Below are positions 10,032-36,519 of a stretch of 64,000 bases of DNA, one piece after another (the stretch's first letter is position 1; each line of letters begins with the position of its first letter). This DNA comes from Opitutales bacterium (GTDB lineage: Bacteria > Verrucomicrobiota > Verrucomicrobiia > Opitutales > PNEW01), in NCBI GenBank assembly GCA_965197745.1, contig CBDANS010000007.1:1052306-1116305 (forward strand), given 5' to 3'. Position numbers and translations under genes: made by a program. The notes beneath the pieces were generated by a model. It saw only the letters and a list, made by a program, of their open reading frames with translations. It made no database searches and was not told the origin of the DNA.

Positions 10032-10613
10032 TTAATTATGACTTATGTTTTCGATGTCATCTTCCACTTTCTCATCGAACTTAATTAAAGACTTTTTCCA
10101 GTCAAATAACGCTTCCCATTGGCCAGTCGAGGGATTTTCTCTTTTCCAGTTATTTTTCTCTTGTAGTTCCCAAAATGAGTCAGCAGCTCTTTCGTCAATA
10201 CCCATAGCATCGCAAATATCGATGAACTCATCGTAATTTTTCGGAAGAGGACGGGGTGAAGGAAGGGCTCTTTGCCTCTCCTGCGCTGCGGGGGTCAATA
10301 AGGTGTAAGTATTATATACTCTCCTGCCTCGACCTGATTCTATTTTCAGCAACGTTATAGCGCTTAATATTTTAAGCACAGCGGAGGTTTTACTTTTCGA
10401 TAAACCCGCGCGGTAAGCGATCAATCCGATCGAAGCAGAGAAGGGACGAAATTGATCTCCATGATCATTAGCAATCCAGTTCAGGGCACTGTAAACAGAA
10501 ATTGTAAATGAAGCGTTGGTCCCCAGTACTTCCTGTAAAATAATTATATGCGCATCCTTATAATTTCGGTAATAGGAGAGCTCTTTACTTTGACCTGCTG
10601 GATTTTCAGGCAT
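10032..10613 (-). CDS. Winged-helix DNA-binding protein, possible replication/primosome organiser of the integrated element
   Basis: The N-terminal half looks like an HTH_36-type wHTH (LSKSKTSAVLKILSAITLLKIESGRG). The Trp-rich C-terminus is DnaD-like. It overlaps the upstream HTH gene by 8 nt. Family assignment is from memory. Confidence 0.45.
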   Translation of the reverse strand: MPENPAGQSKELSYYRNYKDAHIIILQEVLGTNASFTISVYSALNWIANDHGDQFRPFSASIGLIAYRAGLSKSKTSAVLKILSAITLLKIESGRGRRVYNTYTLLTPAAQERQRALPSPRPLPKNYDEFIDICDAMGIDERAADSFWELQEKNNWKRENPSTGQWEALFDWKKSLIKFDEKVEDDIENISHN

Positions 10614-10875
10614 GTCTCTTCCTGTGCTTGCGGGCTGCTGTCTGCTGATTCTCCAACTTTTCCAAAGTCGTTAAGAGCGTCTCCCGGCGGTATAACTTTC
10701 TGCCTCCTATGCGAATCGGTTTAAGCAGTCCGCGCCTGTCGTAATTTCGTACTGTGCGAATGGAGACCCCGAGTATTACTGCGGTCTCTGACTCCCTCAG
10801 CAACAGGGGCGGGTCGATACGAACTGAATTGAGTGTAGATGGGGTATCCATGGTGCCTTGTAATTTAAGGCACAC
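10606..10875 (-). CDS. Excisionase/AlpA-type (MerR-like HTH_17) DNA-binding protein
   Basis: LRESETAVILGVSIRTVRNYDRRGLLKPIRIGGRKLYRRETL. The likely true start is Met at 10851. Confidence 0.7.
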   Translation of the reverse strand: MCLKLQGTMDTPSTLNSVRIDPPLLLRESETAVILGVSIRTVRNYDRRGLLKPIRIGGRKLYRRETLLTTLEKLENQQTAARKHRKRHA

Positions 10876-10941
10876 ACTATACCATCACATTTCTCGATTT
10901 TTCCTGTAATCGCATACAGTAACTTTAGAAGATACTGTATG

Positions 10942-11253
10942 TTAATGGAGAACAGGTGAATTCCCTCTTTCAAGAGCGATTTTAATTATTTCTGTGACTG
11001 AAAAAACGTTTGGATAAACACGTTGTATCAACCCATTTTGATCGGGACAATCTTCGTTGCTATTATCTATCGCATCGGCTTGTCCCTCAATACGGGAATA
11101 GTATCGCCTTTTTCGAAGAACCGGGTTAAGGTTTTTACCAAATCCCCGCTCAACAATCGCTTTCTCAATTGCATCAGCCCGTGGTAGAGATTCAGATGTG
11201 CGAAAGTGCTCAACAGCCAGAAAGGATTTCCACTGCGCCTCTGTCCCAAACAA
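10942..11253 (-). CDS. Hypothetical protein (103 aa)
   Basis: The ORF starts where the DUF6499-like homology to module 2 ends. No homologue is recognised. Confidence 0.3.
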   Translation of the reverse strand: MFGTEAQWKSFLAVEHFRTSESLPRADAIEKAIVERGFGKNLNPVLRKRRYYSRIEGQADAIDNSNEDCPDQNGLIQRVYPNVFSVTEIIKIALERGNSPVLH

Positions 11254-11941
11254 CTGGACTTTTGTGGCGGGGAATCCTCTTCCAGTTTTTCGGTAATAAG
11301 CTTGATGATTTTATCACGGGAACTTTTGTCTCTCATAGAGACACGAGGGACGGCAAATAAACGATAAGTATTAACTGTCCAGTGCCAATACAGTGCCGTA
11401 TCCGAAAAACAGCTCTCAAGAGCTGCTTGCGAATGGTCTTCGTGGGGCAGCGCAGGGGCTATTTCTATATCAGGAGGTATTGCATCTTCGTTGGGATATA
11501 ATCCTGAAGGGACGATCTCGCAAATATCCGCCGTATAGTCCGCCCAATAATCTCTGTACGCCTTCTGAAATCCTCGCGGGGTATTGAGCCAGGTTGAATC
11601 AAGCTTTAAAGGGGCACGCCCTTTTTTCTTATCCTCTTTGTATTCTTCTAAAAACTCAACCTGGTCCTCTTCTATCCTCGGACCTACTACCTGACGATGT
11701 CCTTCTTTGGGCCCAAGCCCACGTGGGATTATTACTGGTTCATGCATCCAGTTCCAGGCCGCTCCCGCAAAATAATTACGGTCATCTTGAACGAACCTGA
11801 ATTTTTCCCATCTTCCCTCTTTGCCCTGAAGACTATGCTAAGCTCCTTTGTTTTTTCTTGAAACGCTTTATTGCGTCGAAGTAATTCCCATATCTTCGCC
11901 GGTATGCCGTCCTCACAGGGATTGTAGATTGATAAGCTCAT
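11067..11941 (-). pseudogene. DUF6499-like protein (WELLRRN motif), frameshifted copy; homology to the intact copy ends near 11240
   Basis: The gene is split into 11732..11941 and 11067..11747. Relative to 33766..34476 there are 2 extra nt near 11850, which breaks the frame. The N-terminal motif is IPAKIWELLRRNKAF. Confidence 0.6.
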
Positions 11942-12735
11942 GCACGCTAACGGTCTAATGGTTTAAATGTGACCACCCTTGGAATTCCATCCTTCACTCC
12001 TTGAAATGGACACAGCCCAGCGCTTCAATTGCTGGAGATGATCCCTGTTTATTTGCAATAACGTTAGCCCTCACAACTTCGCGAACGCAAGGTGCAATTT
12101 GAGATTTACCCGGTATCGTTCTCCCCGCCATGTTTGAAATTCGACTGGAAGCACGCTGGCTAATGTATCTCCCGCGACTCTCCCACTTCCTGCACCGACA
12201 GATCCTCTGGGGTGTTTCTATCCCTGTCCCTTAGCTGTCATGAGCGCTGTCCCGTGCGTGAGTTTCCCTGCCCCCGAACTGCGATGAAAAATTTCCTTGC
12301 CCACGAGGTTCCGTCCTTCCGCTCTAACTTATGCACTGGCGCAACCTTATGGCTGATTTCCCGCTCGCCCGTATCCAACACTACGACGCACGTAACAGGC
12401 TGCTTGCCATCGCGGGAATGTTTTGCTCTCTCCTTCACGATGAAAAATTATGACACAAAATCGGCGCGGTGCAAACGCAATATTTTTCAAACTGACCCAC
12501 TAACGGTAACCGTTAATCTGGCCAACCCCCTCGCTGGTGAGGCTGAAGATGTCACCCAAAGTAATCATGGAAAACTTTAAAACCCCTCTCAAATCTATAA
12601 GCGAAAATAGGATCGATAAGTTGGACTGCTGTTCGGCAATCAGGGCACAGATAGCGGTTGAAGGTTTGGAATCGAGTTGTTTTACAGCTAAATTCGCTGC
12701 TTAAGGGTATCATGAACCCGGATGGCAATACCCCA
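11942..12735. other. Conserved non-coding spacer of integrase module 1
   Basis: Long identical blocks with 34477-35177, but two non-triplet indels. Contains the palindrome TAACGGTAACCGTTA. Flanked by a 24-nt direct repeat. Confidence 0.6.
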
Positions 12736-14022
12736 TCAATCTAATGGTTTAAATGCGACAACCGATTGCTCTGCATTTGCCGGGAGAATTGAGAAATATT
12801 TTTCCCCCTCTGTTCTGCTAGCAAGACTCCGGTAATGATCAAACAGTACCTGGTCACTCGAACGATGGCCCAGCATCGCTGCTGTCTTGCTTGAATCACT
12901 GGTCAGGGCATAATAGTAGCTGCCGAAGCTGTGGCGCATCGCATTGCTGTAGTTTCCCCCCCAATGGGGAAAGCCCGCTTGTTTGGTTAACTTAGCAAAG
13001 TTTATGTATGAATTTGCGGGTGCAACTTTACCCTTTTTATTATGACATAGCTGCAACCATGCCACACAATTGTCCATAAGATCCATGACTCTTAACTGGC
13101 GCTTTTTAGCTATCTGTGGGCCAACCGTCAGTAACTTGCGCTCCAGATCAATAACCGACCAGTCAAGCCGGTAAATCTCAGTGCTCCTTAACCCTGCGAA
13201 CAGCCCTAGTGCCACCAATGGGAGCAGCCCCATATCTTCATCTGTCTTTGCCGCATGCAAAACCAAATCTTCTGCTTGAGTGACTTTGAGAATGACAGGG
13301 GGCTTCCAGTCTATTTTTGGGATTGGAATTTTCTTCACGGGGTTATCGACCCGAAATCCCTTGTTCACCGCATAGTTAAAAAAGCTGCTTAAGCATAAGC
13401 GGTAGTTTATAATGCTTCTCACAGAGAGATCGGTAAAGTTATTGAGCCACTCCTCTATTTCCGTTTGAGAAATCTCCTTGACCACTCGGCTCCCAAAGTT
13501 TCTAGAGAAGATTCCCAGCCGGGAGCGGATATCATTTATGGAGCGCGAGCGCAGATTCCGGTTTTCTTTTTCCTCAATCAATGTTGCCGTTAATTCCAGA
13601 ACCGTAATATCACCGGCAGGGGGATTCAAATGCAGCTTGGCAAACTCCGCTGCCTGCAAGAGGGTAATGTCGAAACCTTCCAGTATTTCGAATGCGTTGA
13701 AAGCGTCCTTGGACTGGTACCCGGTCAGGTTATAATGATGCTGCCCGTGTTGAAGCAATTGTTCGTGTTGTTCTTTTGCCCAGGCAAAAGCGACCTCTTT
13801 ATCCTTGAACTGTCTTCTCATTCGCTTGCCCGCGAACTTCGCGGGAATCAAAACCTGGTAGGAAAATCCGTAATCATCGCCAGCGGTTCGATTGATAACT
13901 TCCCTGATTGTGATAGCACTTTTTTTAGGGTGCTCCCAGCTATTAAGGGGACTCGATTTTTTACGTTTTCCTTTAGTTGCCTCCATCAAGCAAACTAATG
14001 CCTCAATCAGGTTTACTTGCAA
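12736..14022 (-). CDS. Tyrosine recombinase/integrase (module 1)
   Basis: 428 aa with catalytic-region motifs AGLRSTEI, MRHSFGSYY, LGHRSS and FDHYRS. About 88% identical to 35178..36464. Confidence 0.9.
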   Translation of the reverse strand: MQVNLIEALVCLMEATKGKRKKSSPLNSWEHPKKSAITIREVINRTAGDDYGFSYQVLIPAKFAGKRMRRQFKDKEVAFAWAKEQHEQLLQHGQHHYNLTGYQSKDAFNAFEILEGFDITLLQAAEFAKLHLNPPAGDITVLELTATLIEEKENRNLRSRSINDIRSRLGIFSRNFGSRVVKEISQTEIEEWLNNFTDLSVRSIINYRLCLSSFFNYAVNKGFRVDNPVKKIPIPKIDWKPPVILKVTQAEDLVLHAAKTDEDMGLLPLVALGLFAGLRSTEIYRLDWSVIDLERKLLTVGPQIAKKRQLRVMDLMDNCVAWLQLCHNKKGKVAPANSYINFAKLTKQAGFPHWGGNYSNAMRHSFGSYYYALTSDSSKTAAMLGHRSSDQVLFDHYRSLASRTEGEKYFSILPANAEQSVVAFKPLD

Positions 14023-14079
14023 GCTTTATTGACAATAATAATACAGGAACATTACAAGTCATTGATATATTTATATATA

Positions 14080-15107
14080 AACGATTCGATGATCCGTTCT
14101 GCCAAGGGCTTGCTGGTTCGATATAGAGGGTATTGATTTTCATCGCAGTTAGCCAGGCTCTCAATTCACTTCCAATAAATGGCTTCGCATGTCGTCGCTT
14201 CGCTCCTCGGAACCGATCCATTGTCGCTGCGAATATATTGTGGCGGCCCATGACGGTCGAGCAGTTTTTGCATGACCCCGCGCACCTTCTGCGCATTGAT
14301 ATGGCGATCGACATGGATCACCCGACACTCGCGGGTGTACTCGTCGAGGACGGTCAGCATTTTGAGATTCCCACCGCGAGCCGTCTTATCGTGGATAAAA
14401 TCCCAGGTCCAAACAGGGTCGGGATGTTCGGCCTTGGTCGGCAGCCCGGTGGAGATACCCCGGCGCCGACCTCTTGGCTTGCGTGGGGGGATCGCCAGAC
14501 CCAGTTCACGTCGCAGACCTTGCACGAGACGTTTACCCACCTGCCAGCCTTCGTCCTTCAACAGCTTCGTGATCTTCGGATAGCCCCACCTCGCCTATTG
14601 CCGTGATAACCGCCTTACTGCCGCCTTCAGTTTCGTTAGCCAGGCATCCGGATACTTCGCCCGATACGCATAGGTGGAGCGGTGCAGGTGAAAGTATCGG
14701 CACGCTCCACGCATCGAACACTGGCCCCGGGCCACAAGTCTCTCTGCCACTTGCCGCTTGTGCCCAGGGCTTACCGTTTTTTTTCGAGGGTCTCCTGCAC
14801 AATCTCTATCCCCAGCAGCTTGTCCGCCAGCATCCGCTTTAACCGCGCGTTCTCCTTCAAAGAGTTCCTTCATCCGCTTGGCCTGGTTGACATCGATCAT
14901 TCCAAACTCACCCTTCCAGTGGAGGAAGCTCAGTTCGCTTAGGTTGTTCTCACGGCATCCTCTTCCTGGGTCGATTTGCCTCTGTCTGCTTGCCGCAATA
15001 TACGTATCTTCTCTTCGGTTGTGTATCTTTTATCTTTCATTGTCTAAGTCCTTTTTAGGTGGCCCAGACCAACTTTTCAAGTGTCACAGTTTCCGTGGTC
15101 ACGACCA
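14080..15107 (-). mobile_element. IS3-family element, copy 3, truncated by about 420 bp at its orfB end
   Basis: Homology to copy 4 begins abruptly at AACGATTCGATG (14080), next to the integrase upstream region. The intact end is ...CCGTGGTCACGACCA at 15107. Confidence 0.8.
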
Positions 15108-15372
15108 ATAATATCCCTAGAACTAATATTATATGCATACTTAGAGGTAATATATTACCGATTACTTCTTTCACTTCCATTGTAATTTTCCTTTCTGTTA
15201 TTTGTTTATCTGAATTGTGACTTTTGTATATAATTCCCTAATTTAGCTTAATTTCTCGTTCTCATTGGATCATGGTCCAAACTCAACAAATTGGTTCAAC
15301 CGGACTTGTTTGACGAATGGAAGCAAGCTTCACGTTTGGTCTGGCTGAAATCGAAAGCGGATATAGGCGGAC

Positions 15373-17580
15373 TCACTGCTGGCGGGGCAGAGTTTCCGCG
15401 ATAGCTGGCGATGAGGTCGTGGGTAGCTCGATGATCATCTCGGTAAATGCAGCGGGTTCGGATTCCACTAGTATGCTTCCCCCGTGTTCGCGTACGATAT
15501 CATTGGAGAGGGCAAGGCCCAGCCCGGTGCCCTGATTCGTCGGCTTGGTCGTGAAGAACGGGGTAAATATCTTCTTGATGACATCGGGCTTTATTCCGTT
15601 TCCATTGTCGCGAATGCGGATTTGGATACAGTCCGTCATGCGCCGGGTGGTGAGCCGCAGAATGGGCTCGTAGTGCACGGTCTTTTTCCCTTCGGTGGCG
15701 GACGAATCGGGAGACTTGCCGTTACCCGCCTCGACGGCGCGCCGCTTCTCGTCAGTGGCATAACAGGCGTTGCTCGCCATGTTCAGGAACACCCGGCCCA
15801 GTTTCTGTTGAATGACGTCGAGTTCCCCCACCTCAGAGTCAAAGTCCTCTTCGATTTTCAGGCAGAATGTCGGGTCAGTGACCCGGGCGCTGTGGTAGGC
15901 AAACAGGGTGTGTTTGGAGAGCAGGGCGTTGATATCCGTCGGCTGCCGCTCGCCAGAGTGCCTACCCATCATAAGCATGCTTTGTACGATCTGGTTGGCC
16001 CGTTCGCCGTGCTCGTGGATGCGCTTGAGGTTGTCGGTAAGATCGCCACTGATCTCGTCGATCAGCTCGCGGCTTTCTTCACCGCCTTCACCAGTGGATT
16101 TTGGGATCTCCTCCAGTAGTTCTTCCAGTAGTTCCTCCGAAACCTCCGAAAAGTTCTTAATAAAATTCAGCGGGTTCTTGATCTCGTGGGCGACGCCAGC
16201 GGTCAATTCGCCGAGCGACGCTAGTTTTTCACGCATGATGAGTTGGTCCTGAGCCCGTTCCAGGTCGGCCAGTGCGCCCGCGAGTTGATCGTTCTTGCCC
16301 TTGAGCTCTTCGGCTAGCTTTTCCACCATATTCAGCCGTTGGACTTCCAATGCGTGGCGGCGAAAGACCTCAAGTGCCGCAGCCATATCCGCTATCTCAT
16401 CGTTCCCACTGATATCGACGGTTGCCTCCAAGTCACCCTTAGCCATGCGGCGCATTCGATCCGACAGCTGTCCAAGCCGACGTGACAGCACCCGGCCGAC
16501 ATACAGCCAAGCGATCAGTACCGCTCCGACGACGCTGATGACGCTCAACGCGAACAAGAGATTGCGTCCGGTAAGGATCGTTCGAGCGGATGTGAGGGAG
16601 GCATCCCGTACGCTTGCGTGAGCCGCACTTACCAGGCTTTCGACCTCGGACACGAGTTCTATGGCAAGAACACGATTATGGGTAAGCAAGTCTCTCTGGT
16701 ACTGGTCAAGCGCGAGTTCCCGTGAGCGGAGGTTGAAACCACCCTCCGGCCCAATGCCCAACTCAATCAACCGGGTGAAGAGAGGCGAGAGTTTCTGGCG
16801 CATCGCTGTTGATCCGAGTATGGACAGGCGCCGCTCGATACCGGAGGCGGTGGACTCGAAGCGCTCCCGCAGCGGTTCTAGCAGGGGGATGTCCGAGACA
16901 TTGAAGGCGGTTGCCAGAATCTGATCCCCAATGGTGGCATCAGCCTGTAACTCGGCAAGGTGGCGATAGCGATTGAACTCCGCTTGCGAGAAATGCTGTG
17001 CTCGGGGTGCGGGCATATCGTTAAGGTTGTCGTAGCCCGTCATTGCATAGAACAATTGATCGTCAATCGATGGAATCAGGATGTTGGTCAACTTGCTGCG
17101 CAGCGCCGCCAGTTCTCTGCGCAGCGCCTGTTGCAGGTTGGTCAGCGCGAAGTGTCCCTCCACCGAATCCTCAATGGCTTTGATGTTTGTAATCAGAGCA
17201 TCACCCCGCGCACGGATGCGCTTTGAGCGTTTCGCTTCCCCGCCTTTCCGTGTCAATGCGGCCAACTGCGTCTCGAAGGCCTTTCGATCCTCGTCGATTT
17301 TTCCAACGACGCGGGCCAAGTCCTCCGGCGACACAGCGGTAGTCAAGCGCAACGCGGCGTCTACGAGAGCGCCGCTTTGTTGCGCGGTACCAAAGGCGGC
17401 CGCCATCTTCGGGACACTATCCTCGTTCACGCGGCTCTGGACATCACCCACCCGGGCGAAGGATACCCAACCGACCAGACTGGCGACGATGGTGAGGGCA
17501 ACTCCGCCGCCGATACCTATATAGAGCTGCGTCGAGATTAGGAAACGGCTTTCAAATAGGCGTTTAAGTAGGTCTTTCAC
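15373..17580 (-). CDS. Sensor histidine kinase with two TM segments, a large periplasmic region and HAMP
   Basis: H-box AGVAHEIKNPLNFI, N-box NMASNACYA, G-boxes DNGNGI and GTGLGLALS. Confidence 0.9.
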   Translation of the reverse strand: MKDLLKRLFESRFLISTQLYIGIGGGVALTIVASLVGWVSFARVGDVQSRVNEDSVPKMAAAFGTAQQSGALVDAALRLTTAVSPEDLARVVGKIDEDRKAFETQLAALTRKGGEAKRSKRIRARGDALITNIKAIEDSVEGHFALTNLQQALRRELAALRSKLTNILIPSIDDQLFYAMTGYDNLNDMPAPRAQHFSQAEFNRYRHLAELQADATIGDQILATAFNVSDIPLLEPLRERFESTASGIERRLSILGSTAMRQKLSPLFTRLIELGIGPEGGFNLRSRELALDQYQRDLLTHNRVLAIELVSEVESLVSAAHASVRDASLTSARTILTGRNLLFALSVISVVGAVLIAWLYVGRVLSRRLGQLSDRMRRMAKGDLEATVDISGNDEIADMAAALEVFRRHALEVQRLNMVEKLAEELKGKNDQLAGALADLERAQDQLIMREKLASLGELTAGVAHEIKNPLNFIKNFSEVSEELLEELLEEIPKSTGEGGEESRELIDEISGDLTDNLKRIHEHGERANQIVQSMLMMGRHSGERQPTDINALLSKHTLFAYHSARVTDPTFCLKIEEDFDSEVGELDVIQQKLGRVFLNMASNACYATDEKRRAVEAGNGKSPDSSATEGKKTVHYEPILRLTTRRMTDCIQIRIRDNGNGIKPDVIKKIFTPFFTTKPTNQGTGLGLALSNDIVREHGGSILVESEPAAFTEMIIELPTTSSPAIAETLPRQQ

Positions 17581-26966: not shown

Positions 26967-27050
26967 CTTACTCGTCTCAGCCCTGTTTGGGTGAAATCGC
27001 AGTCATTGAGTTCAGTTCGGAACTGATAATCCGTCCAGGTCAACACGGTG

Positions 27051-29061: not shown

Positions 29062-29214
29062 AGATGCTTAAGGCTGTTGTACAACCAACTTCGAATGGCA
29101 CCCGTTTCCGTCTGGTAACAGGAAACAGGGATTTGGCCATTAGAGGGAACAAAGGTATCTGTAGTCGGCAGTGTCGATAGCACTACGCAATCGAGTCGGC
29201 GATTCAGTCGCAGC

Positions 29215-31530
29215 TTGCAGCCCAGGAGCGTCGAGGCTATGAATCCTTTGCAATTGGACCGCTACATTGCGACCATTGTGAGCCACCGGTGGCTGGTCGC
29301 TGCTCTGGCCGTGTTGGTCATGGTGGTGATGGCGGCGGGCGTACGCTTTATTTCCGTGACAAACGATTACCGAATCATGCTGGGTGAAGACAATCCGCAA
29401 CTCGCGGCTTTTGACGCCCTGGAGAACACCTATTCGGTATCGAACAAGGCCCTGATTGCCGTCGCCCCTCAGGAGGGCTTGGTGTTCACTCGCGAGGCGC
29501 TTGGGGCGATTGAGGAGCTGACCGAAACCGCGTGGCGTGCCCCTTATTCCAATCGGGTCGACTCCCTGAGCAACTACTCCCATAGCGAGGCCTCCGGGGA
29601 TGATTTGATTGTCGAACCGCTCGTCGATAACGCGCAATCGCTGAGTGATGCTGACGTGGCGCGGATCGAGACGATCGCGCTGAACGCAATCGAGATTGCG
29701 GGGCGTCTGGTCTCCCATGACGGACGTGTGGGCGGGTTGGTGATCAATTTCGTACTGCCCGAAAATCCGGATGCCGCGGTGGTCGAGATAACCGATTATC
29801 TTGATGCCCAGCTGGAAAAGGCGCGCGCGCGCCATCCGGATGTCGCTTTTTACCTGACCGGCGATGTTATCATGAACCGCGCTTTCGCCGACGCCACCCA
29901 AGATGATTTGAAGACCCTCGTACCGGTCGTGTTTGTGATCATCACAGCCGCTGCAGCCTTTCTGCTGCGTTCGGTATGGGGCACTCTGGCCATCGTTGTC
30001 GTGCTGGTGTTCGTGGTCAACACCACTATGGGGTTCGCCGGCTGGCTCGGCACGGTGTTCAACCCCGCCAATTCTGGCGTACCGCTCATCGTCATGGCAG
30101 TCGCCGTCGCGCATTCGGTGCATATCGTCTTAACCACTTTACAGCGCATGAGCCATGGTCTGGACAGGAATGCGGCGATTGCGCAATCGCTTCGTAGCAA
30201 TGCCTATCCGGTGTTTCTTACCACCCTCACGACGGCGATCGGGTTTCTCAGCCTGAATGCATCGGATTCGCCACCTTTTCACGACTTAGGCAATTACGTG
30301 GCCTTTGGCGTGTTATGTGCCTTCGTCTACTCCATGACTCTCCTGCCAGCGATGCTTTCGCTCCTGCCATTGCGTGCGCCTCCTGTCCGCCCTGAACGGC
30401 CTGTCTTCTTCGACCGCTTCGGCGCCTTTGTCGTCGAATACCGCAGATTCTTGCTTTGGTTCGTCGTCCTTCTGGCCGTGTTGCTGGCCATGGGCATTCC
30501 CCGCAATGAACTGAGCGACAACTGGACGCGGTATTTCGATGATCGTTATGAGTTTCGGCGCCACACAGACTTCGTCATCGAAAACCTGACGGGTTTGGAA
30601 ACGCTGGAATACTCGCTGAACACGGGGTGCGAAGGCGGTATCACCGATCCCGAATACCTACAGACAATTAATGGTTTCGCCGAATGGTACCGGGGGCAAC
30701 CCGAAGTGGTCCATGTCCAGGCCTTTCCGGACATCATGAAGCGTCTCAACAAGAACATGCACGGCGACGACCCGGCCTTCTATCGGTTACCTGACAATCC
30801 GTCGCTCGCTGCGCAATATCTGTTGCTCTACGAGCTTTCACTTCCGTTCGGCAGTGATCTCAACGACCGTATTGACGTCGCCAAATCCGCAACGCGCATG
30901 ACCGTCGTGGTCCGCGGTTCGTCGGCTAGGGAGCAGCGCGAGCTTGATGCGCGTGCGCAGGTTTGGCTCCGCGACCATGCGCCCGACCTTACGACCGCAG
31001 CATCGGGCATCAGTATGGTCTTCGCTCACCTTTCCAAACGAAACATCGACAGCATGCTACGTGGCACGATCATGGCCATGGCCCTCATTTCGCTCATCCT
31101 GATCTGGGTTTTCAAAAGCGTGCGCCTGGGCCTCGTCAGCCTGATCCCAAATTTCCTTCCCGCAGTCATGAGCTTCGGTCTGTGGGGCTATCTCGTCGGC
31201 CGTGTGGGCATTGCCTCCTCAGTCGTCACCGCCGTCGCCTTCGGCATTATCGTGGACGATACCATTCATTTTCTGACCAAATACCTAAAAGCTCGCCGCG
31301 AGGGCCTCCAAGCGTCCGAAGCGGTGCGCTCGGCCTTTCGCACTGTAGGTCAGGCGTTATGGACCACGACCGCGGTCTTGTCGGCGGGCTTCCTGGTGTT
31401 CGCTTCATCGGGATTCGAAGTCAGTTGGGCGCTTGGTCTTCTGGTCACGATCACCGTCATCTTCGCGCTCCTCACCGATTTCTTTCTTCTGTCCACTCTG
31501 CTGATAGCCATCGACCGGGAGAAACCATGA
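29215..31530 (+). CDS. RND-superfamily (MMPL/HpnN-like) exporter
   Basis: Two six-helix bundles, each preceded by a soluble loop. The likely start is Met at 29239. Confidence 0.85.
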   Translation: MQPRSVEAMNPLQLDRYIATIVSHRWLVAALAVLVMVVMAAGVRFISVTNDYRIMLGEDNPQLAAFDALENTYSVSNKALIAVAPQEGLVFTREALGAIEELTETAWRAPYSNRVDSLSNYSHSEASGDDLIVEPLVDNAQSLSDADVARIETIALNAIEIAGRLVSHDGRVGGLVINFVLPENPDAAVVEITDYLDAQLEKARARHPDVAFYLTGDVIMNRAFADATQDDLKTLVPVVFVIITAAAAFLLRSVWGTLAIVVVLVFVVNTTMGFAGWLGTVFNPANSGVPLIVMAVAVAHSVHIVLTTLQRMSHGLDRNAAIAQSLRSNAYPVFLTTLTTAIGFLSLNASDSPPFHDLGNYVAFGVLCAFVYSMTLLPAMLSLLPLRAPPVRPERPVFFDRFGAFVVEYRRFLLWFVVLLAVLLAMGIPRNELSDNWTRYFDDRYEFRRHTDFVIENLTGLETLEYSLNTGCEGGITDPEYLQTINGFAEWYRGQPEVVHVQAFPDIMKRLNKNMHGDDPAFYRLPDNPSLAAQYLLLYELSLPFGSDLNDRIDVAKSATRMTVVVRGSSAREQRELDARAQVWLRDHAPDLTTAASGISMVFAHLSKRNIDSMLRGTIMAMALISLILIWVFKSVRLGLVSLIPNFLPAVMSFGLWGYLVGRVGIASSVVTAVAFGIIVDDTIHFLTKYLKARREGLQASEAVRSAFRTVGQALWTTTAVLSAGFLVFASSGFEVSWALGLLVTITVIFALLTDFFLLSTLLIAIDREKP

Positions 31531-32342
31531 TCCACGTCTATCTCACTCGATCGGCATGCTTGTTTCTCGTCCCCTGCCTGGCTTATCTGGGTACGCCCTC
31601 CCTCGCCCGTTCAGACGACGCCACTGCCGAGGAAGCTGGGCTGAAAATCGCGGTTGAAGCACGCGATCGTGCAAAGGGTTTTGGCAATTTTACGGCTCGC
31701 CAGACCATGGTGCTGCGCAACAGGCAGGGACAGGAGAGTCAGCGCGAACTGCGCGTAAAGGTTCTGGAGGTTGACGGTGACGCCGACATGAGCATGTTCG
31801 TGTTCGATCATCCGCGCGACATCAAGGGGACCGCACTTCTCATCCACGCCCACCGGAAAGGGGCGGACGACCAATGGCTCTATCTGCCCGCCCTGAAACG
31901 GGTCAAGCGCATCAGTTCCTCGAATCGTTCCGGTTCCTTCATGGGCAGCGAATTTGCCTATGAGGACATGAGCGCCCCGGAGGTGGAGAAGTTTACCTAC
32001 CGCTACCTGCGCGACGAGCCTTACGGCGAGTTGACATGCACGGTCTCCGAACGCGTCCCCGTCGATAATAAATCGGGCTACACTCGCCAACTCGTCTGGC
32101 GCGACAAGGACGAGCTTCGCGTCTTGAAAGTGTATTACTTCGACCGCAAGAATGAACACCTGAAGACTCTCACCATGAGCAACTACGCGCAGTATCTGGA
32201 TCGTTACTGGCAGGCGGGCACGATGACAATGGTCAATCATCTCACCGGTAAAAGCACCGTTATGACTTGGTCCGATTATCAGTTTCGTACCCAACTCGAT
32301 GCCTCCGACTTCTCCCAAACCGGCCTCAGACGCACGCGTTGA
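31527..32342 (+). CDS. Outer-membrane lipoprotein-sorting (LolA-like) protein partner of the RND exporter
   Basis: ATGA start/stop overlap with the exporter. Contains WLYLPALKRVKRISSSNRSGSFMGSEFAYEDM. The long upstream part of ORF 30963..32342 is a shadow. Confidence 0.75.
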   Translation: MIHVYLTRSACLFLVPCLAYLGTPSLARSDDATAEEAGLKIAVEARDRAKGFGNFTARQTMVLRNRQGQESQRELRVKVLEVDGDADMSMFVFDHPRDIKGTALLIHAHRKGADDQWLYLPALKRVKRISSSNRSGSFMGSEFAYEDMSAPEVEKFTYRYLRDEPYGELTCTVSERVPVDNKSGYTRQLVWRDKDELRVLKVYYFDRKNEHLKTLTMSNYAQYLDRYWQAGTMTMVNHLTGKSTVMTWSDYQFRTQLDASDFSQTGLRRTR

Positions 32343-32417
32343 TCCCTACCCCTCCTCATCACGCGCGCACCTTTTCTTGGCCGTCTGCGTTTCCGGCAAG
32401 ATAAAAATTAAGGGGAC

Positions 32418-32438
32418 AATATACAATGCTAGCCAAAA
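32418..32438. repeat. Left arm of a perfect 21-bp inverted repeat
   Basis: AATATACAATGCTAGCCAAAA is the exact reverse complement of 33770-33790. Confidence 0.95.
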
Positions 32439-32444
32439 GTAAGA

Positions 32445-32801
32445 TTAAAGAGATTTCTTCTCAAGAAGAGACAGAATCTGATCAAGTTTCTCGTCTATCG
32501 GTTTTAATCGATCAAAAATCTGATCTTGAGAAGCTGGCTTTAAATGCTTTGTTATCGATTGAAGAACTTGATATAGCTCTACAGCGTGAATCTGACAGGT
32601 TAAAGTCACAGGGGTATCCACCTGAGGATTGTAAAACGTTCTCCATGTTGCTTCGATCACTAGAGCGTAGGAACCATCTAGATCCGGATGGGGATGACAT
32701 GATATGTCAATTACGCGAAACGAATAGTCGTGTCTCCTTAATAACTCTCGCAACGAATCTGGTTGCATGGTATCGTCGTGGTTCTCCTTTGAATCGTTCA
32801 T
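32445..32801 (-). CDS. Hypothetical protein (118 aa)
   Basis: A C-terminal-like fragment (LYEVYQSLTKHFQP) recurs at 9770-9857 beside IS3 copy 2. This gene shares an upstream motif with 32920..33222. The fully overlapping + strand ORF is judged a shadow. Confidence 0.45.
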   Translation of the reverse strand: MNDSKENHDDTMQPDSLRELLRRHDYSFRVIDISCHPHPDLDGSYALVIEATWRTFYNPQVDTPVTLTCQIHAVELYQVLQSITKHLKPASQDQIFDRLKPIDEKLDQILSLLEKKSL

Positions 32802-32919
32802 AAGTTTTATATCTTTCGTTTGTTGTTAATCATTAAATAGTTAAAATATGATATTTATGTTTATACTCTTACAGGTAGTGTTTTATCTAGGGATCTCGGC
32901 TTTGTTTTTTATACATCCT

Positions 32920-33222
32920 CTAAGAAGCCCCCCTCCCTCTTCCAGCGAACCAGAAAGCAATTATACTGCTAGCTATCGGGAGAATTGTTGTGAACAGGTT
33001 CTTAGCATCATCGAGCTTATCGATATAAACAAGGAAACCAATAAAGAGGGGTCCTCCAAAAAAGAGAAACAAAGTTGCGGCCAAGCTAATAATGATACGA
33101 ACCCAACTTCTACGAATCTCCAATAATTCTAATCGTTGATTAACAGATAGCGGTTCTGTCTCACATAATCTTTCCCACCAACGCAATCTGATAGGTTTTT
33201 CTAGTAGTTCGTCGTTTCCCAT
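32920..33222 (-). CDS. Hypothetical two-TM membrane protein (100 aa)
   Basis: Hydrophobic segments IIISLAATLFLFFGGPLFIGFLVY and ILPIASSIIAFWF. Confidence 0.45.
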   Translation of the reverse strand: MGNDELLEKPIRLRWWERLCETEPLSVNQRLELLEIRRSWVRIIISLAATLFLFFGGPLFIGFLVYIDKLDDAKNLFTTILPIASSIIAFWFAGRGRGAS

Positions 33223-33765
33223 GTTTATACTTTCGTTTATTGTTGATTATTAAATAGTTAAATAAGAAAAAAATGAAATGTGTATTAAGTCAGCCTCGTA
33301 CAGGGGGAGCAGGCGGTGGAAATTATCTAACGATCAATGGATATTCACCAGCAGGCGGTGGAAATTATCTAAGAGAACTTAAACGTGATAACGGAAGCAC
33401 CCTTCGGAATGTTGAATTCTTTAATGTCTTGGATAATCCCAAGATCGCGAGCACGTTTAGGGAGCAAGATATCACTTTTACTGAATAATCTATTCGCTTG
33501 GTTCTTGGTGACTTTAGTCCTTTCGACCAGTATTGATTCTGCAAAGTTTTGGCCGGCGTTGAGCTGATTAACCATCTCGATAAGTTCATTCTGTCTATAG
33601 TTAAGGGGATGCTCGATAAGAGATTGACCTACAAAGGATTGGTATCTTAAAGGGGCTTATACCAAAAAAACCAAAACTTATTGAACCAGTAAAAGGAACT
33701 TTGAAACAAGTAGTTAAGTCTATCTTTATAAAAGACTTAAAGCCTAAGAGGGTTAAGAAAAAGAA

Positions 33766-34476
33766 TTAATTTTGGCTAGCATTGTATATTAGCCCCACTT
33801 TTGGTTCCGGTGAGCCCTCTTTCAGTTTTTCGGTAATAAACTCGATAACTTTATCGCGGGAACTTTTTTCTCTCAAAGAGACACGAGGGACGGCAAATAA
33901 ACGATTAGTTTTAACTGTCCAGTGCCAATACAGTGCCATATTCGAAAAGCAGCTCTCAAGAGCTGCTTGCGAATGGTCTTTGTGGGGTAGTGCAGGGGCT
34001 GTTTCTATCCCAGGGGGTATTTCATTTTCGTTGGGATATAATTCTGAAGGGACGATCTCATGGACATCCGTATAATCCGCCCATTTCGCCTTGAATGCAT
34101 TCTGGAATCCCCGGGGAGTATTGGGCCAGGTTGAATCAAGTTTTAATGGGGCACGATCTTTTCTCTTATCCTCTTCGTATGCTTCTAAAAACTCAACCTG
34201 GTCCTCTCCTATCCTCAGACCCAATCTTTGAGGCTGTCCTCTTTTGGGCCCAAGCCCACGTGGGATTATTACTGGTTCATGCATCCAGTTCCAGGCCACT
34301 CCCGCAAAATAATTATTTTCTTCTTTAACGGACAGGAATTTTTCCCTTCTTCCCTCTATGTCCTGAAAACTATTAAGCTCCTCTGACTTTTCTTTAAACG
34401 CTTTATTGCGTCGAAGCAATTCCCATACCTTTGCCGGTATGCCATGATTACAGGGATTGCAGTCTGATAAGTTCAT
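33766..34476 (-). CDS. DUF6499-like protein (WELLRRN motif), intact copy
   Basis: Start set at MNLSDCNP to match module 1. IPAKVWELLRRNKAF resembles the WEFLRRN signature of regulators found on integrative elements (from memory). Confidence 0.65.
   Translation of the reverse strand: MNLSDCNPCNHGIPAKVWELLRRNKAFKEKSEELNSFQDIEGRREKFLSVKEENNYFAGVAWNWMHEPVIIPRGLGPKRGQPQRLGLRIGEDQVEFLEAYEEDKRKDRAPLKLDSTWPNTPRGFQNAFKAKWADYTDVHEIVPSELYPNENEIPPGIETAPALPHKDHSQAALESCFSNMALYWHWTVKTNRLFAVPRVSLREKSSRDKVIEFITEKLKEGSPEPKVGLIYNASQN
33770..33790. repeat. Right arm of the perfect 21-bp inverted repeat
   Basis: It overlaps the last codons (IYNASQN*) of 33766..34476. Confidence 0.95.
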
Positions 34477-35177
34477 GCGCACTATTGCTTCTTCTAGTGG
34501 TATTAAATTTAACAAACGTTTGGACTCATCCTCCAATACTTAAAGTAGGCACTTTAGCCAGCGCTTCAATTGCTGGAGATGATTCCTGTTTATCTGCAAT
34601 AATGTTAGCCCATACAACTTAGCGATCGCAAGGTGCAATTTGAGATAACCCTGTATCGTTCTCCCCGCCATGTTAGAAATGCGACAGGAAACACGCTGGC
34701 TATTGTATCTCCCGTGACTCTCCCATTTCCTGCACCGACAGATCCTCTGGGGTGTTTCTATCCCTGTCCCTTAGCTGTCATGAGCGCTGTCCCGTGCGTG
34801 AGTTTTCCTGCCCCTGAAGCTTCGCCCTTCTGCCCGAACTTATGCACTGGCGCAACCTTATGGCTGAAATACCGCTCGCCCTTATCCAACACTACGAGGC
34901 ACTCGACAGGCTGTTTGCCATCGCGGGAACGTTTTGCTCTCTCTTTCACGACGAAAGACTATGACACAAAATCGGCACGGTGCAAACGCAATATTTTTCA
35001 AACTGACCCACTAACGGTAACCGTTAATCTGGCCACCCCCCTCGCTGCTGAGGCTGAAGATGTCACCCAAAGTAATCATGAAAAAAGGCACAGATAGCGG
35101 TTGAAGGTTTGGAATCGAGTTGTTTTACAGCTAAATTCGCTGCTTAAGGGTATCATGAACCCCGATGGCAATACCCA
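34477..35177. other. Conserved non-coding spacer of integrase module 2
   Basis: See 11942-12735. Confidence 0.6.
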
Positions 35178-36464
35178 TCAATCTAATGGGTTAAATGCGA
35201 CAACCGATTGCTCTGCATTTGCCGGGAGGATTGAGAAATATTTTCCCCCCTCTGATTTACGCGCAAGACTCCGGTAATGATCAAAGAGCACCTGGTCGCT
35301 TGATTTATGCCCGAGCATGGCTGCCGTTTTACTCGCATCGCTGGACAGGGCATAATAGTAACTGCCGAAACTGTGACGCATCGCATTGCTGTAGTTTTCT
35401 TTCCACTTGGGAAAGCCCGCTTCTCTGGTAAGTTCTGCAAAGCTTTTGAATAAATTGGTTGGTGCAATACGCCCTGTCTTTTTAAAGCATAACTGTAACC
35501 AAGCTACACAATTGTCCATAAGATCAACAACCCTTAATTGGCGCTTTTTAGCTATCTGCGGTCCAACCGTCAGTAACTTGCGCTCCAAGTCGATCGCAGA
35601 CCAGTCAAGCCTGGATATTTCAGTGCTCCTTAACCCTGCGAACAGTCCTAATGCCACCAATGGGAGCAGCCCTATATCTTCATCTGTCTTTGCCGCATGG
35701 AAGACTAAATCTTCCGCCTGATTGACTTTGAGAATGACAGGGGGCTTCCAGTCTATTTTTGGTATTGGAATTTTCTTCACAGGATTATCGACCCGAAATC
35801 CCTTGTTCACCGCATAGTTAAAAAAAGTGCTTAAGCATAAGCGGTAGTTTATAATGCTTCTCACAGAGAGAGAGGTAAAGTTATTGAGCCAGTCTTCTAT
35901 TTCCATTTGAGAAATCTCCTTGACCAGTCGGCTCCCAAAGTTTCTTGAGAAGATTCCCAGCCGGGAGCGGATATCATTTATAGAGCGCGAGCGAAGATTC
36001 TGACTTTCTTTTTCTTCAATCAATGTTGCCGTTAACTCCAACACTGAGATATCACCGGCCGGGGGATTCAAATGCAGCTTGGCAAACTCTGCTGCCTGCG
36101 ATAGAGTAATGTCGAAACCTTCCAGTATTTCGAGAGCATTGAATGCATCCTTGGATTGGTAACCGGTCATGTTATAATGATGCTGCCCGTGTTGGAGCAA
36201 TCGTTCGTGTTGCTCTTTTGCCCAGGCAAAAGCCACCTCTTTTTCCTTGAACTGTCTTCTCATTCGCTTGCCCGCGAACTTCGAGGGAATGAGTACCTGG
36301 TAGGAAAATCCGTAATCATCGCCAGCGGTTCGATTGATAACTTCCCTGATTGTGATAGCACTTTTCTTAGGGTGCTCCCAGCTATTAAGGGGACTCGACT
36401 TTTTACGTTTTCCTTTAATTGCCTCCATCAAGTAAGACAATGCCTCAATCAGGTTTACTTGCAA
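35178..36464 (-). CDS. Tyrosine recombinase/integrase (module 2)
   Basis: 428 aa, paralogue of 12736..14022. Confidence 0.9.
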   Translation of the reverse strand: MQVNLIEALSYLMEAIKGKRKKSSPLNSWEHPKKSAITIREVINRTAGDDYGFSYQVLIPSKFAGKRMRRQFKEKEVAFAWAKEQHERLLQHGQHHYNMTGYQSKDAFNALEILEGFDITLSQAAEFAKLHLNPPAGDISVLELTATLIEEKESQNLRSRSINDIRSRLGIFSRNFGSRLVKEISQMEIEDWLNNFTSLSVRSIINYRLCLSTFFNYAVNKGFRVDNPVKKIPIPKIDWKPPVILKVNQAEDLVFHAAKTDEDIGLLPLVALGLFAGLRSTEISRLDWSAIDLERKLLTVGPQIAKKRQLRVVDLMDNCVAWLQLCFKKTGRIAPTNLFKSFAELTREAGFPKWKENYSNAMRHSFGSYYYALSSDASKTAAMLGHKSSDQVLFDHYRSLARKSEGGKYFSILPANAEQSVVAFNPLD

Positions 36465-36519
36465 GCCTTATTGACAATAATAATACAGGAATATTATAAG
36501 TTATTGATATATTCTTTAA

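What the first reader, a model, noticed from the sequence alone, without database searches (positions are those of the whole stretch)
10032..36515. Two paralogous integrase modules in direct orientation, 22 kb apart
Seen:
- Both loci carry the same arrangement: DUF6499-like gene, conserved spacer, 428-aa tyrosine integrase (about 88% aa identity), and about 55-60 bp of shared integrase-upstream sequence (14023-14076 and 36465-36511).
- Homology stops at one shared point on the right. After it, module 2 runs into the hemY terminator and module 1 into a truncated IS3.
- To the left the modules differ. Module 1 has excisionase-like and wHTH genes. Module 2 has small membrane and hypothetical genes.

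Inference:
- These are tandem or nested integrative elements at a site downstream of the hemFEY operon.
- Everything between 14.08 and 32.4 kb could be cargo of the second element, or a separate insertion.
Basis: partly seen in the sequence, partly recalled or inferred. Interest (0 to 1): 0.6.

Follow-up and report, generated by a model that had tools for sequence, protein, structure and literature searches.

The report
Two integrase elements, different insertion sites
The window holds two separately inserted, partly decayed copies of a small integrase-carrying mobile element common in Opitutales bacteria: one sits in a hairpin just after the haem gene hemY, and the other sits inside the transposase gene of an IS3 insertion sequence, a target this element has hit repeatedly in other genomes.

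Summary
Window 11258-14071 matches 33797-36513 at 85-90% nucleotide identity, and each stretch carries an intact 428-aa tyrosine integrase.

The "tandem or nested at one site" reading is only partly right.
- Both modules belong to a multi-copy element family in Opitutales (Verrucomicrobiota). At least 9 further copies were fetched.
- Module 1 is 96-98% identical to copies elsewhere but only 89% identical to module 2. They are therefore independent insertions, not a local duplication.
- Module 2 joins a host repeat hairpin 70 nt after hemY. Module 1 joins an IS3 transposase gene at the QNGYIES codons.
- The same IS3 junction recurs in at least four other IS copies of two IS types. It also recurs at a non-IS site with a similar 20-mer.
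- An intact IS3 at 43657-44986 serves as the empty site.
- Distant relatives of the integrase sit next to tRNA or tmRNA genes with T-loop direct repeats, so these targets look like T-arm mimics (inferred).
- Module 2 is a remnant, cut at 33797 by a 1.4-kb element with inverted ends.
- The 18-kb high-GC block is bounded by IS ends and is not canonical cargo.
- A sister strain has one module at hemY, and a marine relative has none.
- The far-end att was never found.

The parts
12736..14022 (-). int1, an intact 428-aa tyrosine integrase (E1 sublineage)
   Evidence: Pfam PF00589 and phrog_1. The catalytic residues R279, K306/307, R363, H386 and Y397 are conserved. dN/dS is 0.15-0.19 against other copies.
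14023..14086 (-). Integrase-proximal end of element 1. It holds a promoter-like region and the junction at 14079|14080 with the exchange zone AATCGTT.
   Evidence: Junction alignments. The same end sequence, TATATATAAATATATCAATGAC, is present in L004, L005, L049 and L051, and with one or two substitutions in L006, L050 and L052.
14080..15109 (-). 5' three-quarters of an IS3-family element (IS44k type). It is cut at the codons for ...PWQNGYIES of orfB, and it is the target of element 1.
   Evidence: 90% identical to 43948-44976. It lacks the part equal to 43657-43947. The reading frame runs into the element.
11992..12735 (-). Conserved non-coding spacer between int1 and the roughly 330-aa gene
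   Evidence: A mosaic of conserved blocks and indels across 10 copies. No Rfam match for the homologous spacer of module 2 or at gathering threshold in the whole window.
11067..11991 (-). Clade-specific roughly 330-aa gene, frameshifted in this assembly, with an N-terminal WELLRRN motif
   Evidence: 290 aa in L047, 344 aa in L001, and 330-334 aa in 20 homologue clusters. The PF20109 hit is below threshold. No fold match.
10606..10875 (-). Excisionase-like HTH_17/MerR gene
   Evidence: Pfam PF12728, E=2e-8. phrog_66 and phrog_7735 excisionase. Homologues follow the integrase in 7 of 8 distant tRNA-linked relatives examined.
10032..10613 (-). 193-aa winged-helix protein, possibly a replication initiator or a regulator
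   Evidence: AF2 model with pLDDT 83. Weak fold matches to RepA_N-type initiators 4pql, 4pt7 and 5kbj and to MarR/ArsR proteins. phrog_391 O-like, E=0.0096.
7620..9991 (-). Secondary insertion into element 1: a full IS3 copy (8299-9727) plus a 201-aa ORF (7668-8273)
   Evidence: Absent from L001, L004 and L006 at the homologous point.
5446..7619 (.). AT-rich, repeat-laden distal backbone of element 1. It contains 3 x 52-nt iteron-like repeats (7081-7236) and modules of about 430 nt.
   Evidence: Collinear with L001, L006, L049, L050 and L051. Repeats.
15110..32411 (.). High-GC (51-59%) block: histidine kinase, binding protein, RsbW/RsbU/STAS-like proteins, an Amt transporter, a split TonB receptor, MPAB and MMPL
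   Evidence: Composition and Pfam. Bounded by the IS3 end at 15109 and the inverted-repeat element at 32412. Absent from L001.
32412..33796 (.). 1385-bp element with 31-nt terminal inverted repeats and three small ORFs. It truncates module 2.
   Evidence: (I4). Homology of module 2 to every other copy stops at 33797.
33797..35177 (-). Remnant of the roughly 330-aa gene (N-terminal part) plus the spacer of module 2
   Evidence: The excisionase and winged-helix genes are missing.
35178..36464 (-). int2, an intact 428-aa tyrosine integrase (E2 sublineage)
36465..36527 (-). Integrase-proximal end of element 2. It holds a promoter-like site (TTTAAA-16-TATAAT) and the 3' hairpin arm CCCGTC.
   Evidence: The arm CCCGTC also appears at the IS3 junctions of L006 and L052.
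36528..36596 (-). Host repeat ('leader'): TAGTCCCGC-N3-CGCGRGA followed by the 5' hairpin arm GACGGG. This is the probable attB side.
   Evidence: Shared with the htpG-linked copy L048. Paralogues without an integrase lie at 42254-42282 and at L047 4148-4166.
36610..39971 (-). hemY, hemE and hemF (protoporphyrinogen oxidase, uroporphyrinogen decarboxylase, coproporphyrinogen oxidase), the core flank
   Evidence: Pfam. Synteny in L001 and L041-L046.
43657..44986 (-). Intact IS3 (IS44k type). The unoccupied target CATCGAATCGTT is at 43948-43959.
   Evidence: The IS part of the interrupted copy in L050 is 99.9% identical to it.

Best explanation
The two modules are two independently inserted copies of one family of small integrase-excisionase elements that is multi-copy in a group of Opitutales genomes.

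The backbone, shown by comparing copies, reads: integrase end with its promoter, integrase, a spacer of about 0.75 kb, a clade-specific 330-aa protein, an HTH_17 excisionase, a 193-aa winged-helix protein, then an AT-rich repeat region.

How it probably works (inferred):
- The integrase belongs to a Verrucomicrobiota lineage whose other members integrate into the T-loop region of tRNA or tmRNA genes.
- This sublineage carries only a remnant of that site. The arm CCCGTC equals the 3' T-stem strand of tRNA-His in the nearest tRNA-linked relatives.
- It recombines with sequences that mimic a T-arm, of the form ACGG - 8 to 11 nt - C(C)GT(C/T), often with a TCGAAT-like loop.
- One such mimic is a host repeat hairpin just after hemY, which is the module 2 site. 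The same kind of site is used after htpG elsewhere in what is probably the same genome (same sample, similar coverage).
- Another mimic is the DNA that encodes QNGYIES, the motif around the catalytic glutamate of IS3 transposases. This is the module 1 site.
- Because IS3 copies are abundant here, the element has many landing sites and has multiplied. Each such insertion inactivates one IS copy.

State of the copies in this window (shown):
- Module 1 is nearly complete but has picked up another IS.
- Module 2 is a stump (integrase plus half a gene), cut by a 1.4-kb element with inverted ends.
- The 18-kb high-GC block between the modules is delimited by IS ends.
- The whole stretch of about 40 kb from hemY to its ancestral neighbour is a mosaic of mobile DNA.
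For: Homology and intact integrases:
- Self-BLAST and protein checks.
- dN/dS is 0.15-0.19, and 11 of 11 integrase ORFs are intact.

Independent origin:
- int1 is 95.8-97.9% identical to L004, L005, L049, L050 and L051 but 88.9% identical to int2.
- int2 is 93-96% identical to L001 and L048.

Fixed IS3 junction:
- Module 1, L005, L006 and L050 interrupt IS44k-type copies at the same nucleotide. Their outer flanks are unrelated.
- L004/L049 and L052 interrupt two variants of a second IS3 type at the homologous codons.
- L051 has the same element end next to a non-IS 20-mer, CAATCGGTTCATTCAATCGTT.
- The integrase always points the same way as orfB.
- The IS part of L050 is 99.9% identical to the intact IS at 43657-44986, whereas module 1's IS part is 90% identical. 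The two integrases are 97.9% identical. These are therefore separate events.
- Junction variants AATCGTT, AATCGTC and ACCCGTC fit a roughly 7-nt exchange zone.

tRNA ancestry:
- In 26 of the 29 more distant loci scanned (L008-L038), a tRNA or tmRNA gene ends about 70-150 nt upstream of the integrase on the same strand.
- Direct repeats that start in the T-loop delimit elements of 6.6-11 kb in L022, L023 and L035.
- The motif ATCAATGACTT follows the tRNA end in relatives and follows the junction here.

Host repeat at the hemY site.

Island status.
Against: - No far-end att repeat and no displaced IS3 3' fragment was found within 11-15 kb of any copy. Neither the element's length nor a clean insertion has been demonstrated.
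- No circular or excised form was seen.
- The T-arm-mimic motif was defined after looking at the junctions. The hemY and htpG copies share about 85 nt to the left of the hairpin, which I attribute to a host repeat on the strength of only two further copies.
- For module 1 against L005, the divergence of the IS part (88.5%) is about what neutral drift since one shared insertion would give. Not all IS44k-type junctions need therefore be independent.
- These genomes are riddled with IS3 copies, so IS-mediated rearrangement has certainly reshaped these loci.
Confidence: 0.6

Rival explanations
1. Classical tandem accretion. Both elements entered the same attB after hemY, one after the other. The IS3 and the 18-kb block arrived later between them.
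For: Both modules are in direct orientation inside one variable island next to hemY. Tandem arrays at tRNA-type sites are common (established knowledge; the Islander paper PMC4383910 describes island endpoints at tDNA).
Against: Module 1 has no copy of the hairpin or repeat to its right. Its right junction is an internal IS3 codon, identical to junctions at unrelated loci in other genomes. The modules belong to different sublineages.
Confidence: 0.1
2. Nested insertion with later erosion. Element 2 entered after hemY and acquired an IS3 and the cargo in its distal part. Element 1 then integrated into that IS3. Recombination between the homologous backbones and IS-mediated deletions removed the IS3 3' piece and the excisionase and winged-helix genes of element 2.
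For: This is compatible with the site-specific IS3 targeting argued above. It would explain the missing IS3 remainder and the truncation of module 2 at the inverted-repeat element. L001 shows that hemY-linked elements do carry variable distal cargo, there an OLD/UvrD pair.
Against: No element-2 backbone sequence is left between 15110 and 32411 to show that the IS3 sat inside element 2. This is a history that cannot be reconstructed from one window.
Confidence: 0.2
3. No integrase targeting of IS3. The integrase module became fused once to an IS3 fragment and has since spread by IS3-mediated transposition in trans or by homologous recombination between IS copies.
For: IS3 copies are everywhere around these modules. 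Full IS copies lie a few kb downstream of several of them: L004, L050 and module 1 in the same orientation as the integrase, L049 and L052 inverted. The far end was never found. Divergence of the IS part and of the integrase between module 1 and L005 is compatible with co-inheritance.
Against: The same breakpoint occurs in two IS3 types that are only about 50-60% identical. It also occurs at a non-IS site that shares only the 20-mer. The junction sequences differ exactly within a 7-nt zone. L050's IS part is 99.9% identical to an intact IS, while module 1's is 90% identical, for integrases that are 97.9% alike.
Confidence: 0.1
4. In-situ segmental duplication of one module, or conserved core genes rather than mobile DNA.
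For: Direct orientation and 85-90% identity.
Against: Each module has closer relatives in other genomes than in its neighbour. The sister strain has one module, and marine relatives have none at this site.
Confidence: 0.02

Closest known systems
tRNA/tmRNA-targeting genomic-island integrases (Islander-type islands; T-loop 'sublocation' class of Williams 2002, cited from my own knowledge; Islander database paper PMC4383910)
   Same: - A tyrosine integrase at the element's edge, reading away from the target.
- An excisionase about 1 kb downstream.
- Relatives at 30-51% identity sit next to tRNA-His, -Gly, -Arg, -Leu, -Cys, -Pro or tmRNA, and three of them have T-loop-to-3'-end direct repeats.
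- The conserved ATCAATGACTT / TTCCTGT arm region lies after the target.
   Different: - In this sublineage no tRNA gene adjoins any of the 12 copies examined.
- The targets are a host repeat hairpin and the coding sequence of IS3 transposases.
- The element no longer carries a replacement tRNA 3' end, only CCCGTC followed by an AT-rich 13-mer.
- There are several copies per genome instead of one per attB.
Integrase clades that home to genes of other mobile elements (for example the satellites that repeatedly target prophage late genes, PMC10111431, and the dusA-specific integrases, PMC4482086, as examples of protein-gene targets)
   Same: A site-specific integrase uses a conserved coding motif as attB. 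The host of the insertion is itself a mobile element.
   Different: Here the target is the catalytic-motif region of an insertion-sequence transposase. I found no described case of this in two literature searches, which is not proof that none exists. No helper relationship is evident.
Tandem arrays or accretion of islands at one att site
   Same: Two integrase modules in direct orientation within one island.
   Different: The att repeat that should precede each integrase is absent before int1. The two junctions are of different kinds.
Integrative plasmid-like elements (integrase plus Rep plus iterons)
   Same: A winged-helix protein with weak similarity to RepA_N-type or O-like initiators, next to 52-nt x3 repeats and an AT-rich region.
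   Different: The similarity is weak (Foldseek E about 1e-3, TM 0.36/0.5; PHROG E=0.0096). No plasmid or phage record encodes a relative of the integrase. No relaxase or conjugation gene was found among the backbone ORFs scanned.

Membership tests
Tyrosine recombinase / phage integrase (Pfam PF00589) | C-terminal catalytic domain with the R...K...(H)xxR...H/W...Y residues | tested here: met
   PF00589 at E=2e-9 and 1e-12. phrog_1 at E=3e-31. R279, K306/K307, R363, H386 and Y397 are invariant in 8 family members; the position three residues before R363 is N, not H.
tRNA/tmRNA-targeting island integrases (T-loop sublocation) | The integrase gene lies directly downstream of an intact tRNA or tmRNA gene | tested here: not met
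   The only tRNA in the window (Gly-CCC, 42114-42187) is 5.6 kb from int2. None adjoins the integrase in L001, L004-L007 or L048-L052; L004-L007 have no tRNA at all and L001's only one lies 5.6 kb away (junction sequences). The feature is met in 26 of 29 distant relatives scanned.
tRNA/tmRNA-targeting island integrases (T-loop sublocation) | A direct repeat of the target's 3' part marks the far end | tested here: not met
   Found in L022 (26 nt), L023 (23 nt) and L035 (21 nt). Not found for any copy of the window's sublineage.
Tandem island array at one attB | Each element is preceded by the same att sequence | tested here: not met
   The hairpin and repeat occur once in the window, at int2 only. 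int1 is preceded by IS3 coding sequence.
DUF6499 / PF20109 (Trans_reg_dom) | Pfam match above the gathering score | tested here: inconclusive
   E=0.019, 15.8 bits against a cut-off of 23.8, over residues 18-43 (WELLRRN). The hit is weaker on the full-length proteins.
Excisionase / HTH_17 (PF12728) | A small MerR-like HTH protein encoded next to the integrase | tested here: met
   Module 1: E=2e-8, plus PHROG excisionase families. Module 2 has none (it is truncated).
Integrative conjugative or mobilizable element | Relaxase, coupling protein or type IV secretion genes, or an oriT | tested here: not met
   No such Pfam domain in the backbone ORFs scanned. oriT was not tested.
Plasmid-type replication module (RepA_N / O-like initiator with iterons) | Initiator fold plus adjacent iterons | tested here: inconclusive
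   Winged-helix model with pLDDT 83. Foldseek hits 4pql, 4pt7 and 5kbj at E about 2e-3, among many MarR/ArsR hits. phrog_391 at E=0.0096. 52-nt x3 repeats.
IS3 family (the target) | orfA HTH_Tnp_1 plus orfB rve domain containing the DDE motif | tested here: met
   Pfam on 44041-44907, 9261-9659 and 1292-1699. The fragment at 14080-15109 aligns with them and stops at PWQNG(Y)IES.

The most novel reading that the evidence does not exclude
A lineage of tRNA-type integrases has given up tRNA genes. It now homes to short T-arm look-alikes, above all the codons for the catalytic-glutamate motif (QNGxIES) of IS3 transposases. The element therefore spreads within a genome like a transposon, using another mobile element as its landing pad and knocking out each IS copy it enters.
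Probability: 0.45. Interest if true: 0.65.

Novelty: new variant of a known kind. Interest (0 to 1): 0.45.

Why it matters
Integrase-bearing islands are routine, and taken alone the two modules are an ordinary mosaic island.

What stands out is the target choice.
- One closely related integrase clade is found at a fixed codon of several different IS3 copies, and in hairpins of a host repeat.
- Its more distant relatives sit at tRNA and tmRNA genes.

If the inference holds, it gives a natural series showing how a tRNA-specific integrase relaxes to a minimal T-arm-like core and becomes multi-copy. It would also be an example of one mobile element parasitising, and disabling, another.

There is a practical lesson for annotation. 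A "truncated IS next to an integrase" may be an att junction rather than debris, and island finders that require a tRNA would miss these elements.

Tried and rejected
- **Far-end att.** I searched the window for the hairpin with up to 3 mismatches, and all fetched loci for T-loop-like and CAGCCGT motifs. I also ran direct and inverted repeat scans of L001 and L007, BLAST of the IS3 3' remainder against all loci, and a test for a chimeric IS downstream of L050. Nothing convincing came out.
- **Empty hemY site.** The closest hemY homologues (69-74%) are on 2-5 kb contigs and lack the hairpin. They give synteny only.
- **Other collections.** JGI metagenome scan for the integrase start, no match. 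IMG/VR, no relative. PLSDB, no match.
- **Rfam.** Nothing in the module 2 spacer or the leader.
- **Function of the 330-aa protein.** No Pfam, NCBIfam or PHROG family, a poor AF2 model and no fold match.
- **Leader as part of the element.** I first read the shared 85-nt leader as element-borne. I rejected this when integrase-free paralogues turned up.
- **A T-loop regular expression.** My first version was mis-specified. The corrected version hits the IS44k sense strand once, at the junction, but it was built after seeing the data.

Full report
**Observation**

A self-comparison of the window pairs 11258-12574 with 33797-35085 (84.7%) and 12644-14071 with 35087-36513 (89.7%), in direct orientation. 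Each stretch holds a 428-aa ORF on the minus strand (12736-14022 and 35178-36464). Both match Pfam Phage_integrase and keep the catalytic Arg, Lys, Arg, His and Tyr. The two proteins are 89% identical.

To the right, homology ends at about 14071 / 36513. Module 1 additionally has an HTH_17/MerR-type excisionase-like gene (10606-10875) and a 193-aa gene (10032-10613). The right-hand core genes are protoporphyrinogen oxidase, uroporphyrinogen decarboxylase and coproporphyrinogen oxidase. An epimerase, ybaB, recR and tRNA-Gly(CCC) follow.

Two corrections apply. First, the 'DUF6499-like gene' is the N-terminus of a clade-specific protein of about 330 aa. It is 290 aa in a second assembly of this locus and 344 aa in a sister strain. 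Its PF20109 match is below threshold. Second, the small genes left of module 2 lie in a 1385-bp element with 31-nt terminal inverted repeats (32412-33796), whose outer end is the exact point where module 2 homology stops.

**Organism and copy number**

A scan of species-representative genomes with int2 returned Opitutales and Verrucomicrobiota MAGs only. Four loci in two other Opitutales MAGs carry integrases at 82-90% protein identity (L004-L007). Exact-protein look-ups added L001 (a sister strain), L048, L050 and L052 (a 3.1-Mb contig of the same sample and coverage, probably the same genome), L049 and L051.

The 90%-identity clusters of the two integrases hold 45 and 12 members, with several per large contig. 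The element is therefore multi-copy. All 11 integrase ORFs compared are intact, and dN/dS between copies is 0.15-0.19.

int1 groups with L004, L005, L049, L050 and L051 (95.8-97.9% nucleotide identity). int2 groups with L001 and L048 (93-96%). int1 against int2 is 88.9%. The two modules are thus not a local duplication.

**Backbone**

Pairwise comparisons give the shared order:
- integrase end
- integrase
- a spacer of about 0.75 kb
- the 330-aa gene
- the excisionase
- the winged-helix gene
- about 180 nt of conserved sequence
- an AT-rich region of 430-nt modules and 52-nt x3 repeats (window 5446-7619)

In module 1 this order is interrupted at 7620-9991 by another IS3 plus one ORF.

The winged-helix protein gives a confident model whose best fold matches include RepA_N-type plasmid initiators as well as MarR/ArsR regulators, all weak. 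A PHROG 'replication initiation O-like' hit is marginal. The 330-aa protein has no family or fold match. Both proteins are confined to this clade. No relative of the integrase was found in IMG/VR or PLSDB.

**The right-hand junctions**

Read in the integrase sense, every copy ends with ...ATATATCAAT(G/A)ACTT..., preceded by a 13-nt AT-rich stretch.

In module 1, L005, L006 and L050 the sequence to the left is an IS3-family orfB. It runs in frame up to the codons for PWQNGYIES (...CAGAACGGATACATCGAATCGT|). The outer flanks of these four IS copies are unrelated.

In L004/L049 (one locus in two genomes) and in L052, the interrupted IS belongs to a second IS3 type that is only about 50-60% identical. 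It is cut at the homologous codons. In L051 the flank is not an IS but ends in CAATCGGTTCATTCAATCGTT. The integrase always has the orientation of orfB.

The intact IS at 43657-44986 carries the unoccupied site (43948-59). It is 99.9% identical to the IS part of L050, whereas module 1's IS part is 90% identical to it. int1 and the L050 integrase are 97.9% alike. At least these two are therefore separate insertions.

Across junctions the last seven bases read AATCGTT (as in the IS), AATCGTC, or ACCCGTC. This is what a heterologous 7-nt exchange zone between an attP arm CCCGTC and the IS sequence would leave. That reading is inference.

The 'truncated IS3' is thus best read as an att junction, not as debris.

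**The hemY junction**

Module 2 and L001 end in GAAGACGGGTCTTCCTCCCCGTC|TTTTAAAG... The 3' arm CCCGTC is the same as at the L006 and L052 IS junctions.

The 85 nt to the left are shared (83%) with L048, where the element lies after htpG. I first took this as element-borne. However, its core (TAGTCCCGC-N3-CGCGRGA, then GACGG...CCGT) recurs without any integrase 67 nt downstream of tRNA-Gly (42254-42282). It recurs again 3.4 kb left of the window (L047 4148-4166). The alignment score is 40 against a maximum of 27 in 786 control windows, and pattern matches are 2 in the window against 0 expected. I therefore read it as a small host repeat whose hairpin serves as attB.

The hairpin can serve as the hemY terminator, although it fails a strict terminator scan. 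A TTTAAA-16-TATAAT promoter-like site for the integrase lies just inside the element.

**Ancestry of the integrase**

Of the 29 more distant loci scanned (30-51% identity), 26 have a tRNA or tmRNA gene ending about 70-150 nt upstream of the integrase on the same strand. The tRNAs are His, Gly-CCC, Arg, Leu, Cys and Pro.

In L022, L023 and L035 a 21-26-nt direct repeat that starts in the T-loop and runs to the 3' end delimits elements of 7.2, 6.6 and 11.1 kb. An excisionase homologue follows the integrase in 7 of the 8 relatives examined.

The spacer after the tRNA begins with (T)AATCAATGACTT, the motif that follows the junction in the window. The closest tRNA-linked relatives (L008, L009 and also L013) use tRNA-His, whose T-arm reads GCGGG-TTCAAAT-CCCGTC.

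I infer that the window's sublineage kept the 3' T-stem arm and now recombines with T-arm mimics:
- AACGG-ATACATCGAAT-CGTT in IS3
- GACGGG-TCTTCCTC-CCCGTC in the host repeat
- TACGG-TAGAGATCA-CCGTC in L007

A T-loop-like octamer occurs once on the sense strand of the IS, at the junction. That pattern was built after seeing the data.

**Island context**

The sister-strain contig L001 is 98-99% identical through the core and through module 2 up to 33797. It then continues with its own excisionase, winged-helix gene and AT-rich region (80% identical to module 1's), and further on with an OLD-family ATPase and a UvrD helicase. That strain therefore has one complete element where the window has a stump.

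Marine relatives with 73% hemY identity have, 68 nt after hemY, an ORF 72% identical to the C-terminus of a 578-aa protein. In this genome that gene lies 3.6 kb left of the window start. A 69% relative has ferrochelatase there instead. About 40 kb between hemY and that gene is thus inserted material. Besides the two modules it holds four IS3 copies or fragments in the window, more in the left extension, a Fic gene between inverted IS copies, a trypsin-like/CARDB protein gene, and the high-GC block.

**The 18-kb block**

The region 15110-32411 has 51-59% GC against about 45% elsewhere. It encodes signalling and transport proteins.

It starts at the outer end of the interrupted IS3 and ends at the inverted-repeat element that truncates module 2. 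It is absent from L001. Nothing ties it to the canonical backbone, so I treat it as a separate IS-associated insertion or rearrangement. A nested history cannot be excluded: element 1 may have entered an IS that sat in the distal part of element 2, with later deletions.

**What is missing**

I could not find the far end of any copy. There is no repeat of the exchange zone, no orphan IS3 3' fragment and no second copy of the hemY hairpin within 11-15 kb. No excised form was seen. The loci are heavily reworked by IS3 copies. Element length, cargo and present-day mobility therefore remain open, and an IS-mediated route of spread keeps some probability.

**Verdict**

As an island it is ordinary. 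The recurrent, orientation-specific insertion of one integrase clade at a fixed codon of IS3 transposases and in a host repeat hairpin, in a family that otherwise targets tRNA and tmRNA genes, is a new variant worth a specialist's look.

Noticed in passing
window 696-758, 8728-8790, 14175-14237, 44044-44106: A 63-nt block inside all four IS3 copies is 84-89% identical, even between IS types that are otherwise only about 50-60% alike. Two IS types also carry a 44-45-nt in-frame insert between the PW and NG codons of the PWQNG motif.
   Followed up: no
window 32412-33796: A 1385-bp element with 31-nt terminal inverted repeats, an internal 40-nt inverted repeat and three small ORFs. It has no homologue in any fetched locus and no family match.
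   Followed up: partly
window 42461-42521, 46998-47058, 50658-50718, 54728-54788, 55544-55604: Five copies of a 61-nt intergenic repeat ending in GGGGTATA(C/G)CT (D15).
   Followed up: no
window 36546-36564(-), 42254-42272(+); L047 4148-4166(+): A small host repeat, TAGTCCCGC-N3-CGCGRGA, followed by a GACGG...CCGT hairpin with a variable loop. A second palindromic repeat (CCACGACGGAGCGTGG) occurs four times in same-sample loci, including 10 nt from the element after htpG.
   Followed up: partly
window 16939-17102 ~ 25521-25684; 25077-25376 ~ 27051-27350; 22779-25220: The high-GC block has internal 96-98% repeats, and a TonB-dependent receptor is split into two ORFs.
   Followed up: no
L047 4957-9249 (left of the window and window 1-1640): A Fic-domain gene flanked by two inverted IS3 copies, which looks like a composite transposon.
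   Followed up: no
L001 19374-21362; L049 6821-8280: Defence-type genes lie near other copies of the element. The sister strain has an OLD-family ATPase/TOPRIM plus a UvrD helicase (Gabija-like). Another genome has SMODS plus SLATT genes upstream.
   Followed up: no
window 11992-12735 and 34537-35177: The integrase-to-330-aa-gene spacer is a mosaic of well-conserved blocks and indels among 10 copies. It repeats the sequence at the integrase 3' end (GGTTGTCGCATTTAAACCATTAG) just before the next gene. There is no Rfam hit, and its function is unknown.
   Followed up: partly
window 3958-4733 vs 60047-60822: An inverted 776-nt repeat (76%) links two paralogous trypsin-like/CARDB protein genes (2392-4776 and 60004-61980). 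Copies of this gene also accompany the element in L006, L007 and L051.
   Followed up: no
window 14080-14096 and 11067-11991 vs L047: The window assembly differs from the second assembly of the same locus by single-base indels: GGATCATCG against GGATACATCG at the junction, and a frameshift in the 330-aa gene. These are probably long-read errors or polymorphisms.
   Followed up: partly
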